Shown: positions 6,483 through 10,120 of the stretch, piece by piece
How positions within the stretch are numbered: position 1 is the stretch's first letter
Layout of the letters: every line of letters begins with the position of its first letter
DNA from: a virus
Lineage: Duplodnaviria; Heunggongvirae; Uroviricota; Caudoviricetes
IMG/VR virus record: IMGVR_UViG_2537561977_000009
Coordinates: 1 to 10,315 of that record
Strand: one strand, 5' to 3'
DNA length: 10,315 nucleotides
The notes under the pieces: generated by a model
What the model was told of the DNA's origin: nothing
Seen by the model: only the letters and a program-made list of their open reading frames with translations
Databases searched by the model: none
Translations under genes and position numbers: made by a program

Positions 6483-7391
6483 TCAGAATGTCAGTTTGTC
6501 ACTGGATTTACCGAATTTGTCAGACATGGCTCCCAGGCCAGCCAGGACATCGACCTGTCGCTGTCGCCCACCTCCGGGAGCGGCTGGCTGTTGCCAGAAT
6601 TCTTCGAAGTGACGATCAGGTCCAAAGAACGTCGCTGCCTGCTTCACGAACTGTGTGCCGTTATTTCCTGTAGCACGTATCCAGGCGGCATACCGCTTCA
6701 CGCCATCAAGCATGGTTTCGGGTGTCACACCTTCCCTGATTCGGGCTTTCCAGGCTTTGAAGGCTGCTGACTTGGAATTGCCACCAGCACGTTTGGGATA
6801 TTCCTGCCAGGCCTGTTCAAATTCCGGTGAATATTCCTGTCGGGCAGAACGTGCTGGTGCAGACGCGTCAGCGGATGCGCCAATAGTGTTTTTACTCTCT
6901 GTAGTATTCTCTGAAGTAATCTCTGTTGTATTCTCTGTAAGATCGAAATTGGTTTTCCCTTCTCCGCGGCGAGGGGTTTCCCGTGTCCGCGGTGAAGGCT
7001 TTCCCTCCTCCGCGAAATTGGGTTTTACAGTTTCCCGAAAACGGGTTTCCCCATTTCGGGAAAACTGATTGTTTTCATTGATAATTTCATTAAGGCGCTC
7101 ACAATCTATACGGTAGAACATTTTGTGCTCAAGACGCTTGTTGGTTTCAACCAAAATGCCTCTGGACACAAGATGCTTACGCGCTACAGCCTGTTGTTCA
7201 AATGTAAGTCCGGTTTCGTGTTGTATCTCTTCACGCGTTTTATGTACGCCTTCCGCTGCATGTGCTTTATCCTGCCAGTAAAAAATCTGACCAAAGAAAA
7301 TAACAGCGTGCGGACTTCCCATGTATTTAACGAGCCCAGGGTAATAAGCAACCGGATGTCCAAAATCGAGCAGAAGATCAGACGGACGCAT
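6483..7391 (-). CDS. Replication initiator (lambda O-like / replisome organiser) with iterons inside the coding sequence
   Basis: Track ORF 6483..7415. Preferred start is ATG 7391 with GGGAGGTGG upstream (4-nt spacer after GGAGGTGG). N-terminal domain (…VAYYPGLVKYMGSPHAVIFFGQIFYWQD…GLTFEQQAVARKHLVSRGILVE) resembles phage replication-initiator DNA-binding domains. A repeat-encoded linker separates it from the C-terminal domain. Sits upstream of the DnaC-like and DnaB-like genes. Confidence 0.7.
   Translation of the reverse strand: MRPSDLLLDFGHPVAYYPGLVKYMGSPHAVIFFGQIFYWQDKAHAAEGVHKTREEIQHETGLTFEQQAVARKHLVSRGILVETNKRLEHKMFYRIDCERLNEIINENNQFSRNGETRFRETVKPNFAEEGKPSPRTRETPRRGEGKTNFDLTENTTEITSENTTESKNTIGASADASAPARSARQEYSPEFEQAWQEYPKRAGGNSKSAAFKAWKARIREGVTPETMLDGVKRYAAWIRATGNNGTQFVKQAATFFGPDRHFEEFWQQPAAPGGGRQRQVDVLAGLGAMSDKFGKSSDKLTF
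6895..7063. repeat. Iteron array and inverted repeats (putative origin of replication) inside the O-like gene
   Basis: Four tandem 12-bp repeats at 6895..6942 (CTCTCTGTAGTA / TTCTCTGAAGTA / ATCTCTGTTGTA / TTCTCTGTAAGA). Three tandem ~23-bp repeats at 6951..7020 (GGTTTTCCCTTCTCCGCGGCGAG / GGGTTTCCCGTGTCCGCGGTGAAG / GCTTTCCCTCCTCCGCGAAATTG). 10-bp inverted repeat TTTCCCGAAA (7031..7040) / TTTCGGGAAA (7054..7063). An AT-rich stretch follows at 7064..7095. Confidence 0.6.
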
Positions 7392-7407
7392 AGCCACCTC
7401 CCAGGCG

Positions 7408-7608
7408 TTAAACATTTCCGGACTGAAACGCCACCAGCGGATAACTCAGGGTATGAGTACGTCCCTGAACCTGGCAGACAACCTTCTGGCTTTCGGTACT
7501 GACCAGGCAAACCCGCAGAACGTGGCCGTTGCTGGTGGTGAACCACTGCCCCACACGGGGGCAATGGTTGTATCGGTGATACAGGAAATTAACGATGTGG
7601 CGGATCAT
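7408..7608 (-). CDS. Hypothetical small protein (66 aa)
   Basis: ATG 7608..7606 preceded by GGAGGTG with a 7-nt spacer, overlapping the upstream ORF stop (ATGA). Product MIRHIVNFLYHRYNHCPRVGQWFTTSNGHVLRVCLVSTESQKVVCQVQG... has several Cys/His. No family recognised. Confidence 0.5.
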   Translation of the reverse strand: MIRHIVNFLYHRYNHCPRVGQWFTTSNGHVLRVCLVSTESQKVVCQVQGRTHTLSYPLVAFQSGNV

Positions 7609-9517: not shown

Positions 9518-9789
9518 TTATTTCTGCCAACCAATAACCTGAAATAACCCCATTTTCGGGTGATACCAGCGAGTCCCTCGCGGTTCTGCTTCCTCCATAA
9601 CCCGATAAAAAGCAGCCATAAACGGTTCCACAGCAACAATCGCACGACGAGATAACAATCCATCCGGCGTCATAAATTCATGGGTATCGGTAGGGATCTG
9701 ATATGCGTTCACCAGATTGCGACATTTCGCATCTGACATACCGGTTTTTGCTTTCAGCTGGCGATATCCGGCATAGCCCTCACGAATGG
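9518..9789 (-). pseudogene. 3' remnant of a phage ORF truncated at the IS1 junction
   Basis: The frame is open from the IS1 boundary (9789) to stop TAA 9520..9518 (…IREGYAGYRQLKAKTGMSDAKCRNLVNAYQIPTDTHEFMTPDGLLSRRAIVAVEPFMAAFYRVMEEAEPRGTRWYHPKMGLFQVIGWQK). The only internal ATG (9739) has no SD. The track ORF 9518..9964 is chimeric: its first 58 codons are antisense IS1 sequence. Confidence 0.4.
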
Positions 9790-9844
9790 GGTAATGCTGC
9801 CAACTTACTGATTTAGTGTATGATGGTGATTTTAAGGTGCTTGC

Positions 9845-10120
9845 GTGACTTCCATTTCCATCAGATGTCCTTCCTGCTCCGCTACTGAAGGCGTGGTGCG
9901 TAACGGCAAAAGCACTGCCGGACATCAGCGCTATCTCTGCTCTCATTGCCGTAAAACATGGCAACTACAGTTCACTTACACCGCCTCTCAGCCCGGTACG
10001 CACCAGAAAATCATTGATATGGCCATGAATGGCGTCGGATGTCGCGCCAGTGCACGCATTATGGGCGTTGGCCTCAACACGGTTTTACGTCACTTAAAAA
10101 ACTCAGGCCGCAGTCGGTAA
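9845..10120 (+). CDS. insA: IS1 InsA (transposition inhibitor / N-terminal part of InsAB' transposase)
   Basis: GTG start 9845. 91-aa product [91 protein letters not shown] with a zinc-finger and HTH, matching IS1 InsA closely. Confidence 0.9.
10094..10104 (+). other. IS1 programmed -1 ribosomal frameshift site (A6C motif) linking insA to insB'
   Basis: TTAAAAAACTC at 10094..10104 near the insA 3' end. Reading in the -1 frame from here gives [45 protein letters not shown]..., which matches InsB. Confidence 0.8.

What the first reader, a model, noticed from the sequence alone, without database searches (positions are those of the whole stretch)
6895..7095. Likely replication origin inside the initiator gene: 12-bp and 23-bp iteron arrays plus an inverted repeat
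Within the O-like coding sequence there are four tandem 12-bp repeats (core TCTCTG-N3-GTA), then three tandem ~23-bp repeats (core GGNTTTCCC-N3-TCCGCG), a 10-bp inverted repeat (TTTCCCGAAA / TTTCGGGAAA) and an AT-rich stretch. This matches the lambda arrangement where ori iterons sit in the linker-coding part of O. Having two different repeat families side by side is unusual. The 12-bp periodicity of the first array does not match a helical repeat, so it may simply encode a repetitive linker (…TENTTEITSENTTESKNT…), with the 23-bp array being the true iterons.
Basis: partly seen in the sequence, partly recalled or inferred. Interest (0 to 1): 0.45.

Follow-up and report, generated by a model that had tools for sequence, protein, structure and literature searches.

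The report
Phage replication origin inside initiator gene
The repeats are very probably the replication origin of an E. coli lambdoid prophage, sitting in the part of its initiator gene that encodes a floppy linker; the short 12-base repeat is conserved as DNA in phages from staphylococci to E. coli and may mark where the DNA opens.

Summary
The gene is on the minus strand (6483-7391). It encodes a replication initiator (PHROG 270) with no Pfam lambda-O match. It contains five, not three, 23-bp units in register (6945-7059). A GATC spacer follows, then four 12-bp units (6891-6938). Both periodicities beat all 2000 codon-shuffled controls.

The order [winged-helix N-domain]-[23-bp repeats]-[12-mer array]-[C-domain] recurs in hundreds of phage and prophage initiator genes. 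The 23-mers change with the N-domain subfamily and are read in three frames, so they behave as iterons.

The 12-mer array (RCARAGAYTACW) stays constant across 18 N-domain subfamilies, 14 C-domain types and hosts from Firmicutes to Proteobacteria. Its synonymous sites are fixed: Glu GAG 54/56 inside against 365/744 elsewhere, GC3 0.27 against 0.62. It is therefore a DNA element, not just a linker peptide. It occupies the place of the AT-rich unwinding region of lambda and P22.

Best reading: an iteron origin with a sequence-conserved unwinding-type element, encoded in a predicted disordered linker. No function was tested. In this window the helicase-loader and helicase genes downstream are broken.

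The parts
6483..7391 (-). Replication initiator gene (302 aa from the ATG at 7391; the open frame extends to an ATG at 7415).
   Evidence: ORF list and translation. PHROG 270 'replication initiation protein', E=4e-66. Homologues start at MRPSD, and a GGAGG lies just upstream of 7391. Annotated in near-identical Stx phages as 'phage replication protein O'. No Pfam, NCBIfam or PDB sequence hit.
7074..7391 (-). Coding region of the N-terminal winged-helix DNA-binding domain (aa 1-106).
   Evidence: The AlphaFold2 model shows helix-strand-helix-helix-strand-strand over residues 18-106 at pLDDT 65-80. The best Foldseek hits are winged-helix proteins, led by plasmid Rep/initiator N-domains 5kbj, 4pql and 4pt7, all weak (E about 0.01-0.04). 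Homologues at 28-81% identity occur in many proteobacterial phages and prophages.
7066..7100 (.). AT-rich stretch on the N-domain side of the iterons; encodes the end of the N-domain (RLNEIINENNQF).
   Evidence: Composition profile. Lowest-GC 36-mer of the gene, 0.25. In GC-rich homologues the array side, not this N-domain side, is usually the GC minimum, so this stretch may be incidental.
7037..7059 (-).
   Evidence: Register anchored to the 12-mer array. Core GGGAAACCC at 7043-7051. Dyad GAAA-N5-TTTC is my own reading of the unit sequences listed.
7014..7036 (-). 23-bp unit 2 (GGGAAACTGTAAAACCCAATTTC), the most diverged unit.
   Evidence: The inverted-repeat arms at 7031-7045 and 7049-7063 span units 1 and 2.
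6991..7013 (-). 23-bp unit 3 (GCGGAGGAGGGAAAGCCTTCACC).
6968..6990 (-). 23-bp unit 4 (GCGGACACGGGAAACCCCTCGCC).
6945..6967 (-). 23-bp unit 5 (GCGGAGAAGGGAAAACCAATTTC), next to the 12-mer array.
6939..6944 (-). Spacer GATCTT containing a GATC (Dam) site between the last iteron and the array.
   Evidence: In the five enterobacterial genome loci and the Clostridium MAG locus L133, GATC is kept while the next amino acid varies (D-L, D-H, D-P). It is absent in Burkholderiales relatives, which have GTTAA there.
6891..6938 (-). Array of four 12-bp units (ACAGAGAATACA ACAGAGATTACT TCAGAGAATACT ACAGAGAGTAAA), read as TENT TEIT SENT TESK. Proposed unwinding-type element of the origin.
   Evidence: GC is 0.33 against 0.51 for the rest of the gene, and Glu is GAG 4/4 against GAA 19: GAG 5 elsewhere. 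The same DNA motif sits directly 3' of the iterons in homologues from many hosts, with fixed synonymous sites.
6840..7073 (-). Segment encoding the predicted disordered linker (aa 107-184). It contains all the iterons and the 12-mer array.
   Evidence: AlphaFold2 pLDDT is about 34 across residues 107-184, between two folded domains.
6486..6839 (-). Coding region of the C-terminal domain (aa 185-302; the YSPEFEQAWQEYPKRAGGNSK type). Presumed contact for the helicase loader or helicase.
   Evidence: Helical model at pLDDT 62-80. The domain is shared at 94-95% DNA identity with phiP27 L17, which has a different N-domain and different repeats. It is one of 14 C-domain clusters found joined to the array.
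5594..6481 (-). DnaC-like helicase-loader gene just downstream. It is interrupted by an in-frame stop in this window (ORFs 6239-6481 and 5594-6217).
   Evidence: PHROG 50, Pfam IstB_IS21, NCBIfam DnaC. Three-frame translation. Intact 879-nt genes in Stx2_EH2201 and in E. coli RMDEC465.
4207..5618 (-). DnaB-like replicative helicase gene. It is frameshifted in this window (ORFs 4944-5618 and 4207-5028).
   Evidence: Pfam DnaB and DnaB_C on two overlapping ORFs. Frame switch seen. Intact genes of about 1.4 kb in relatives.

Best explanation
Window 6891-7059 is the vegetative replication origin of a lambdoid (Stx/phiP27-type) E. coli prophage. It lies in the part of the phage's own initiator gene that encodes a disordered inter-domain linker.

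Inferred mechanism, by analogy with lambda O/ori-lambda, P22 gene 18 and SPP1 G38P/oriL:
1. Dimers of the N-terminal winged-helix domain bind the five phased 23-bp iterons, which have the core GGGAAASCC and an imperfect dyad.
2. The resulting nucleoprotein complex destabilises the adjoining 12-mer array RCAGAGAYTACW.
3. The array serves as the strand-opening and helicase-entry zone. It may be read sequence-specifically as single strands.
4. The C-terminal domain brings in the phage's DnaC-like loader and DnaB-like helicase, which are encoded immediately downstream.

Shown here: the anatomy, its non-random nature, its recurrence, the divergence of iterons with the N-domain subfamily, and DNA-level selection on the 12-mers.
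Inferred only: binding, unwinding and origin activity.

In this particular copy the loader and helicase genes are disrupted. The origin could therefore fire only if those proteins came from elsewhere.
For: 1. The initiator identity and the replication-module context are established.
2. The repeats are far beyond chance.
3. The 23-nt period is not a multiple of 3, so successive units are read in different frames.
4. The same order (N-domain, about five 23-bp units, 12-mer array, C-domain) recurs widely.
   - It occurs in Klebsiella, Acinetobacter, Salmonella and Burkholderia phages found through the N-domain protein alone; the Pasteurella and Aggregatibacter phages carry 23-nt-phased units followed by a 13-bp variant of the array.
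   - It occurs in 31 of 34 genome loci found the same way.
   - It occurs in 82 of 99 unique viral ORFs found through the array.
5. Each of 18 N-domain subfamilies has its own 23-mer consensus. N-domain identity correlates with iteron-profile similarity: rho 0.60, with 0 of 2000 Mantel permutations reaching it. Close relatives keep five units in register but with altered cores.
6. The 12-mer array is constant across those subfamilies, and its synonymous sites are fixed in 29 genes found through the protein alone.
   - Thr ACA/ACT: 134 of 137 in the array, 166 of 482 elsewhere.
   - Glu GAG: 54 of 56 in the array, 365 of 744 elsewhere.
   - Ala GCA: 18 of 18 in the array, 210 of 1047 elsewhere.
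   - Ile ATT: 31 of 33 in the array, 128 of 341 elsewhere.
   - GC3: 0.27 in the array, 0.62 elsewhere (p = 4e-9).
7. The lowest-GC 30-mer of the gene overlaps the array in 20 of 29 genes.
8. Lambda and P22, whose origins are annotated in their records, have iterons followed by an AT-rich zone with ACAAAAGA(C) repeats in the same position and orientation. That zone is the unwinding region in lambda (PMC7466680, PMC5043065).
9. SPP1 oriL is biochemically validated. It has direct repeats plus an AT-rich unwinding element inside gene 38 (PMC6316719).
10. The origin-encoding segment is predicted to be disordered.
Against: - No experiment exists on this origin or on any close relative in the searchable literature.
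- The correlation between iterons and N-domains is also expected from simple physical linkage and shared ancestry.
- At 33% GC the array is only moderately AT-rich, and its Glu codon is GAG rather than the more AT-rich GAA. Plain ease of melting therefore does not explain its conservation.
- In the window itself the lowest-GC stretch is on the other side of the iterons, at 7066-7100.
- The array is always read in one frame (119 of 120), so a peptide constraint may coexist with the DNA constraint.
- The N-domain cannot be shown to be homologous to lambda O (hhalign probability 12.9%).
- The helicase-loader and helicase genes are broken in this copy.
Confidence: 0.75

Rival explanations
1. The 23-bp repeats are the origin iterons, but the 12-mer array is not the unwinding zone. 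It is instead a double- or single-strand binding site for a conserved protein. Candidates are a host replisome component such as primase or helicase, a nucleoid protein, or a conserved surface of the winged-helix initiators. Such a protein would position priming or loading, or regulate firing.
For: - Conservation is sequence-specific rather than compositional: GAG is kept over GAA, and position 7 is A in 73 of 73 units.
- The motif persists across phyla and across different initiator, loader and helicase types.
- From my own knowledge, untested: each unit carries TTA/CTA on one strand and CTG on the other. These are the preferred start trinucleotides of DnaG primases in Firmicutes and in E. 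coli.
Against: - No matching known site was found, and there is no DnaA box near the origin.
- The array sits exactly where the lambda and P22 unwinding regions sit.
- It is the GC minimum of most GC-rich homologues.
- This rival overlaps with the best explanation, because unwinding elements of oriC and RK2 are also read sequence-specifically (PMC5043065).
Confidence: 0.25
2. The 12-mer array is mainly a conserved junction that allows in-frame homologous recombination between initiator modules (N-domain plus iterons against C-domain). It has no direct role in initiation.
For: - Mosaic joints flank the array. phiP27 shares only the part 3' of it. mEp460 shares only about 40 bp of the array, at 97.5% identity, with otherwise unrelated domains.
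- N-domain subfamilies and C-domain clusters are freely shuffled around the array.
Against: - Selection for evolvability is weak.
- The motif is kept at synonymous sites between phages of Firmicutes, Acinetobacter, Burkholderiales and Enterobacterales, which are unlikely to recombine often.
- Its tandem 12-nt (or 13-nt) periodicity and its fixed distance from the last iteron are not needed for recombination.
Confidence: 0.1
3. Both repeat arrays are only protein-level repeats of a low-complexity linker, and the origin lies elsewhere in the phage genome.
For: - The segment encodes a predicted disordered, polar linker.
- The 12-mer array is always in the frame that gives T-E-I/N-T.
Against: - A 23-nt period cannot give a peptide repeat shorter than 23 residues.
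- Codon choice in the 12-mers contradicts the usage of the same genes.
- The 13-nt variant changes frame between units.
- Iteron cores are conserved as DNA across units that are translated differently.
Confidence: 0.03
4. The 23-bp repeats are initiator-binding sites used chiefly for control, such as autoregulation, titration or handcuffing, rather than for initiation.
For: Iterons in plasmids serve both initiation and control (PMC5043065). Nothing here separates the two roles.
Against: - The sites lie in the middle of the gene, not at its promoter.
- The consensus scan finds no promoter above chance.
- The arrangement copies that of the annotated lambda and P22 origins.
Confidence: 0.05

Closest known systems
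Phage lambda ori-lambda within gene O (and the six-iteron origins of Stx phages 933W and P27)
   Same: - The origin lies in the middle of the initiator gene.
- Dyad-symmetric iterons are about two helical turns apart (lambda starts are spaced 20, 24 and 23 bp).
- An AT-rich zone follows on the C-domain side, and a two-domain initiator has a linker encoded by the origin.
- Helicase-delivery genes follow immediately downstream (PMC7466680).
- The lambda AT-rich zone itself holds ACAAAAGA repeats that resemble the ACAGAGA core.
   Different: - The initiator has no Pfam Phage_rep_O match, and the profile comparison with lambda O and P22 gp18 is insignificant.
- There are five iterons with a different sequence.
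- The AT-rich zone is a regular, sequence-conserved 12-mer array.
- The partners are DnaC-like and DnaB-like proteins, not lambda P with host DnaB.
Phage P22 origin within gene 18
   Same: - The annotated rep_origin (record positions 32840-32984) lies inside the initiator gene.
- It has GGTAAAAC-type repeats followed by two ACAAAAGACAATA units.
- A DnaB-like helicase gene follows.
- By eye the P22 gp18 C-terminal sequence resembles that of the Pasteurella and Aggregatibacter phage homologues of the window's N-domain; no alignment was run.
   Different: - The P22 N-domain is of the lambda-O type.
- The repeats after the iterons are 14 nt apart and differ from the 12-mer consensus.
Bacillus phage SPP1 oriL within gene 38 (replisome organiser G38P)
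   Same: - It is an experimentally validated origin made of direct repeats plus an AT-rich unwinding element.
- It lies inside the initiator gene, between the N- and C-domains, and is followed by loader and DnaB-type helicase genes (PMC6316719).
- By eye the G38P C-terminal sequence resembles the Phg_2220_C-type C-domain (Pfam hit on the cluster representative) that is found joined to the 12-mer array in other phages; G38P itself was not scanned.
   Different: SPP1 uses 11-nt and 9-nt repeats and lacks the 12-mer array.
13-mer unwinding elements of oriC and of iteron plasmids such as RK2
   Same: Short tandem AT-rich repeats lie next to the initiator-binding sites. Their exact sequence matters, and the initiator reads them as single strands (PMC5043065).
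   Different: - The units are 12 nt with a G-containing core (CAGAGA).
- They lie in coding DNA.
- They are shared by elements with different initiator specificities.
- No opening or binding data exist.
RepA_N-type plasmid initiators (pSK41 RepA; PDB 5kbj, 4pql, 4pt7)
   Same: - These are the best structural matches of the N-domain model.
- From my own knowledge, these plasmids also carry their iteron origin inside the rep gene, between a DNA-binding N-domain and a host-specific C-domain.
   Different: - The matches are weak (E 0.014-0.04, TM about 0.4) and generic winged-helix proteins score almost as well.
- No sequence similarity was detected.

Membership tests
Iteron origin embedded in the initiator gene (lambda / P22 / SPP1 kind) | Three or more phased direct repeats located between the N- and C-domain coding parts of the initiator gene | tested here: met
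   Five 23-bp units at 6945-7059, inside the predicted linker-coding segment.
Iteron origin embedded in the initiator gene (lambda / P22 / SPP1 kind) | Repeat sequence specific to the initiator's DNA-binding domain | tested here: met
   Eighteen N-domain subfamilies each have their own 23-mer consensus. Mantel rho is 0.60, with 0 of 2000 permutations reaching it. Physical linkage contributes to this correlation.
Iteron origin embedded in the initiator gene (lambda / P22 / SPP1 kind) | AT-rich unwinding element adjoining the repeats on the C-domain side | tested here: met
   The 12-mer array has GC 0.33 against 0.51 for the rest of the gene. It is the GC minimum of the gene in 20 of 29 homologues. 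Unwinding itself was not tested.
Iteron origin embedded in the initiator gene (lambda / P22 / SPP1 kind) | Helicase loader and/or helicase genes immediately downstream | tested here: met
   DnaC-like and DnaB-like genes follow. They are intact in relatives but disrupted in this window.
Iteron origin embedded in the initiator gene (lambda / P22 / SPP1 kind) | The initiator binds the repeats, and the fragment supports initiator-dependent replication | not testable with these tools
   This needs EMSA or footprinting and an origin-cloning assay.
Lambda O protein family (Pfam PF04492 Phage_rep_O) | Significant match of the N-domain to the family profile | tested here: not met
   No Pfam family at E <= 0.01. 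hhalign against lambda O plus P22 gp18 gives probability 12.9%, with only the helix-turn-helix part aligned. The protein works like O but is not filed as a member.
RepA_N / DnaD-like winged-helix initiators | N-domain fold superposable on solved RepA_N N-domains | tested here: inconclusive
   The top Foldseek hits are 5kbj, 4pql and 4pt7, but at E 0.014-0.04 and TM about 0.4, on a model with pLDDT 65-80.
DnaA-assisted origins | DnaA box (TTWTNCACA) in or beside the origin | tested here: not met
   One match in the whole window, at 5904, which is the chance expectation. None lies near 6890-7100.
Structured RNA element | Match to a curated RNA family | tested here: not met
   No Rfam match at E <= 1. 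The folding z-score of -4.0 comes from hairpins in the dyad-symmetric iteron zone; the 12-mer array is unpaired in the centroid structure.

The most novel reading that the evidence does not exclude
The tandem 12-mer RCAGAGAYTACW is a near-universal, sequence-specific origin element of temperate-phage 'initiator-gene' origins. It is independent of the initiator's iteron specificity, of the helicase-recruiting C-domain and of the host phylum: it occurs in phages of Staphylococcus, Bacillus, Acinetobacter, Burkholderiales and Enterobacterales. A component common to all these systems would read it. Candidates are a conserved single-strand-binding mode of the winged-helix domain, or the bacterial DnaB/DnaG machinery. 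The degenerate ACAAAAGA repeats in the lambda and P22 AT-rich regions would be relatives of it. That would make the 'AT-rich region' of phage origins a defined motif rather than a compositional feature.
Probability: 0.35. Interest if true: 0.7.

Novelty: new member of a known kind. Interest (0 to 1): 0.5.

Why it matters
The replication modules of many Stx-type and other temperate phages are not lambda O/P, and their origins are unmapped. The papers found here on these modules describe the genes but not the origins (PMC8044961).

This analysis gives a simple, transferable rule for locating the origin in a large class of phage and prophage initiator genes: phased 23-bp repeats directly followed by a CAGAGAYTAC array.

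It also gives a sharp test of what the unwinding region of a phage origin does. Recoding the 12-mers synonymously keeps the protein but changes the DNA.

If the 12-mer is read by a common factor, it would be a shared vulnerability and a compatibility determinant across unrelated temperate phages. It would also help in annotating origins and in predicting which prophages can still replicate.

Tried and rejected
- Pfam, NCBIfam and PDB sequence searches of the initiator gave nothing.
- Profile comparison with lambda O and P22 gp18 was insignificant.
- Foldseek against the PDB gave only weak winged-helix matches.
- Rfam found nothing in 6400-7500.
- The promoter and terminator scan was at chance level. 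Its one 'terminator' is the iteron dyad.
- No DnaA box lies near the origin.
- Literature searches found no description of this origin or of the 12-mer. They covered iterons, lambdoid phages, 12-bp repeats, replisome organiser, the string ACAGAGATTAC, and the Eru replication-region paper.
A 4-sequence alignment worked.
- SPP1 gene 38 was checked for the 12-mer array and lacks it.
- N-domain subfamily 2 seemed to lack the 23-nt periodicity. In the one member examined (L023) this is because only two 23-spaced units are present.
- The idea that the window's AT-rich stretch at 7066-7100 is the conserved unwinding zone was dropped, because in 20 of 29 homologues, including most GC-rich ones, the lowest-GC 30-mer overlaps the array on the other side of the iterons.
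Full report
**What is there.** The finding lies inside a minus-strand ORF, 6483-7415. Homologues begin at MRPSD, and a GGAGG precedes the ATG at 7391, so the gene is most likely 6483-7391 and 302 aa long.

On the coding strand the order is as follows.
- The end of the N-domain is an AT-rich stretch at 7100-7066.
- Five 23-bp units in one register follow at 7059-6945.
- A spacer, GATCTT, follows the last unit.
- Four 12-bp units follow at 6938-6891: ACAGAGAATACA ACAGAGATTACT TCAGAGAATACT ACAGAGAGTAAA.

Lag-23 and lag-12 autocorrelations are 0.66 and 0.75. They exceed every one of 2000 codon-shuffled versions of the gene (maxima 0.52 and 0.68). They are also the strongest periodic signals in the 10.3-kb window.

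**Context.** The window is an E. coli lambdoid prophage. The minus-strand gene order is:
- Bro/Ant-like and Rha/Ash-like regulators, then two small ORFs;
- the initiator, then DnaC-like loader and DnaB-like helicase;
- NinH-like small ORFs, Q antiterminator and four tRNAs;
- holin, endolysin and Rz.

The initiator matches PHROG 270, 'replication initiation protein' (E = 4e-66). It has no Pfam, NCBIfam or PDB sequence match.

At 96-97% DNA identity it is the 'phage replication protein O' of about 20 Stx1a/2a/2d-converting phages. At 97-99.8% it occurs full-length in 101 complete E. coli genomes.

An AlphaFold2 model built from 24 homologues gives three parts:
- a winged-helix N-domain (residues 18-106, pLDDT 65-80);
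- a segment with pLDDT about 34 (residues 107-184);
- a helical C-domain (residues 185-257).

The low-confidence segment corresponds to window 6840-7073, which holds the iterons and the 12-mers. The origin-like DNA therefore encodes a linker that carries little protein-level constraint, as in lambda O.

**The architecture is a family trait.**
- *Phages found through the N-domain protein.* tblastn of the N-domain alone found homologues at 26-62% identity. They came from phages of Burkholderia, Pasteurella, Aggregatibacter, Klebsiella, Acinetobacter, Salmonella, Vibrio and others. Six were read.
  - Each of the six has 23-nt-phased repeats right after the N-domain.
  - Four of them (Klebsiella, Acinetobacter, Salmonella, Burkholderia) then have 12-mer units of the same kind: CTACAGAGATTA x3, ACAAGAGAATAC x2, GAGATTACACAG and GCAGAGACTACT.
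  - The Pasteurella and Aggregatibacter phages carry a 13-bp variant instead.
- *Genome loci found through the N-domain protein.* A scan of one genome per bacterial species with a 4-sequence N-domain alignment gave 34 loci. They include Morganella, Proteus, Serratia, Yersinia, many Burkholderiales, Acinetobacter and Comamonadaceae. In 31 of them lag 23 is the strongest periodicity just after the N-domain, and 29 have the array.
  - 119 of the 120 hits lie in the same reading frame, and 106 of them lie in ORFs of 240-420 aa.
  - Of 99 unique ORFs, 82 have lag 23 as the top periodicity in the 125 nt upstream. Five others have lag 21, 22 or 24.
  - The remaining 12 form one subfamily. In the member examined (L023) only two 23-spaced units are present.

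**Iterons.** The 99 ORFs plus the window gene fall into 18 N-domain subfamilies (60% identity or more), each with its own 23-mer consensus. They also fall into 14 C-domain clusters, which are shuffled against the N-domains.

The window's subfamily keeps the consensus GGGAAACCC..TTTTCGCGGA while being joined to five different C-domains. Relatives from Morganella, Serratia, Yersinia, Klebsiella and Proteus keep five units in the same register, but with altered cores: GGGAAAGCCC, GGGAAAGTCC, GCGCAAAGCGC.

N-domain identity and iteron-profile similarity correlate, with rho 0.60 and 0 of 2000 Mantel permutations reaching it. Linkage alone would produce some of this correlation. The informative contrast is that the 12-mers lie in the same 170 nt and do not diverge.

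Most units show an imperfect dyad, GAAA-N5-TTTC, which suits a dimeric winged-helix protein. Because 23 is not a multiple of 3, identical DNA cores are translated three ways. Annotated lambda iterons start 20, 24 and 23 bp apart.

**The 12-mer array is selected as DNA.** In the 29 genes found through the N-domain protein only, codon use inside the array differs sharply from the rest of the same genes.

| Measure | In the array | Elsewhere in the gene |
|---|---|---|
| Thr as ACA/ACT | 134 of 137 | 166 of 482 |
| Glu as GAG | 54 of 56 | 365 of 744 |
| Ala as GCA | 18 of 18 | 210 of 1047 |
| Ile as ATT | 31 of 33 | 128 of 341 |
| GC3 | 0.27 | 0.62 (Wilcoxon p = 4e-9) |

- In phage BcepIL02 the array has GC3 of 0.20, inside a gene with GC3 of 0.87.
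- In the window gene all four Glu codons of the array are GAG, against GAA 19: GAG 5 elsewhere.
- The unit consensus from 73 units is RCARAGAYTACW, and position 7 is invariant.
- Pasteurella and Aggregatibacter phages carry ACACTAGATTAC units 13 nt apart, so the same DNA is read in different frames.
- The lowest-GC 30-mer of the gene overlaps the array in 20 of 29 genes. From the array and gene lengths I estimate about two would be expected by chance.
- A blastn search of isolated phages with a 48-nt array found 100 records.
  - They include Staphylococcus, Bacillus, Acinetobacter, Klebsiella, Erwinia, Pseudomonas and Burkholderia phages.
  - Every annotated feature under the listed matches is a replication, DnaD-like or otherwise unnamed gene.
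- In the Staphylococcus 37 and X2 and Bacillus BtCS33 and Athena genes, lag 23 is again the top periodicity upstream. The Glu codons of the array are GAG although Staphylococcus phage X2 uses GAA 23: GAG 3 gene-wide.

The array is therefore not merely a repetitive linker. It is, however, always in the T-E-I/N-T frame, so a peptide constraint may coexist.

**What the array probably does.** It sits where lambda and P22 have their AT-rich region, directly after the last iteron on the C-domain side.
- Lambda has ACAAAAGACACTATTACAAAAGAAAAAAGAAAAGATTATTC there.
- P22 has ACAAAAGACAATAT ACAAAAGACAATAA there, inside the annotated rep_origin.

In lambda this region is the one that unwinds. Two iterons plus this region form the minimal unwinding substrate (PMC7466680). 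The exact sequence of unwinding elements matters in oriC and RK2, whose 13-mers are read as single strands (PMC5043065). SPP1 oriL has direct repeats plus an AT-rich unwinding element inside gene 38 and has been reconstituted in vitro (PMC6316719). Its repeats differ in sequence.

By position and composition the array is therefore best read as the strand-opening and helicase-entry element. This is inference. Its sequence-specific conservation across initiator types and phyla suggests that something reads it, and I could not identify what. No DnaA box is nearby, there is no Rfam family, and promoter-like sites are at chance level.

**State of this copy.** The origin itself differs from that of the Stx phages by only a few substitutions.

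The DnaC-like gene carries an in-frame stop, and the DnaB-like gene carries a frameshift. Both are intact in E. coli RMDEC465 (99.8% identical initiator), in Stx2_EH2201 and in phiP27. Either the prophage is decaying or these are sequencing errors.

**Comparison and novelty.** The locus works like lambda ori/O, P22 ori/gene 18 and SPP1 oriL/G38P. It is not a member of the lambda O Pfam family. The N-domain model best resembles plasmid RepA_N-type initiator N-domains, but only weakly.

An origin inside an initiator gene is a known kind, and this is a new, unmapped member. What seems undescribed in the literature I could search is the conserved 12-mer array and the simple rule that goes with it: 23-nt repeats followed by the CAGAGAYTAC array.

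**Scores.** Interest is 0.5. The finding itself is expected for a lambdoid initiator gene. The cross-phylum, synonymous-site conservation of the 12-mer is a real surprise, and it makes the role of the 'AT-rich region' directly testable.

Noticed in passing
window 5594-6481 and 4207-5618 (minus strand): The DnaC-like loader gene has an in-frame stop (80-aa and 207-aa ORFs). The DnaB-like helicase gene has a frameshift (224-aa and 273-aa overlapping ORFs). Both genes are intact in E. coli RMDEC465, Stx2_EH2201 and phiP27. This copy is either a defective prophage or contains sequencing errors.
   Followed up: partly
window 2776-3085 (minus strand): Four tRNA genes (Gly-tcc, Thr-tgt, Arg-tct, and a CAT-anticodon Met/Ile) lie between the Q antiterminator (3285-3701) and the holin (2269-2484). 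This is the position where Stx-type phages carry tRNAs and toxin genes. No stx gene is present here.
   Followed up: no
window 9845-10120 (plus strand): A 91-aa ORF matches PHROG 1191 'transposase' (E = 2e-53) at the right edge of the window. It lies next to a truncated antirepressor-like ORF (9518-9964). An insertion sequence may interrupt the early region of the prophage.
   Followed up: no
L166, L168 (Staphylococcus phages 37, X2); L167, L169 (Bacillus phages BtCS33, Athena); L170 (Pseudomonas phage AF): The same ACAGAGAWTACT tandem array occurs in the initiator genes of Firmicutes phages, with 23-nt periodicity upstream and GAG Glu codons against a GAA-biased gene. The motif therefore crosses phyla.
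   Followed up: partly
L005 and L007 (Pasteurella phage Pmp14, Aggregatibacter phage Aaphi23), just after the iterons: A 13-bp variant of the array (ACACTAGATTAC units 13 nt apart) changes reading frame between units.
   Followed up: partly
L164 (lambda, record positions 39119-39170) and L165 (P22, record positions about 32920-32960): The classical AT-rich regions of the lambda and P22 origins contain short ACAAAAGA(C) repeats in the same position as the 12-mer array. They may be degenerate relatives of it.
   Followed up: partly
window 6939-6944, and the equivalent position in L130, L131, L133, L135, L136, L138 and many IMG/VR loci: In the enterobacterial loci (and the Clostridium MAG locus L133) a GATC (Dam) site directly precedes the array, and it is kept while the encoded residue after Asp varies (Leu, His or Pro). 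Burkholderiales relatives have GTTAA there instead.
   Followed up: partly
L002 2900-3100 (phiP27 gene L17): phiP27 shares the window's C-domain at 94-95% DNA identity. It has a different N-domain and its own repeats (15-nt TGAAGGTTCAGAATCTGACGG-type units and two 24-nt-spaced CTTGCGGATCATGTTTTGAA units), with no 12-mer array. The mosaic joint falls exactly at the 3' end of the array.
   Followed up: partly
window 6885-7100 (minus strand): As RNA, the origin segment folds better than all 200 shuffles (z = -4.0). The stable hairpins lie in the dyad-symmetric iteron zone, and the 12-mer array is unpaired in the centroid structure.
   Followed up: yes
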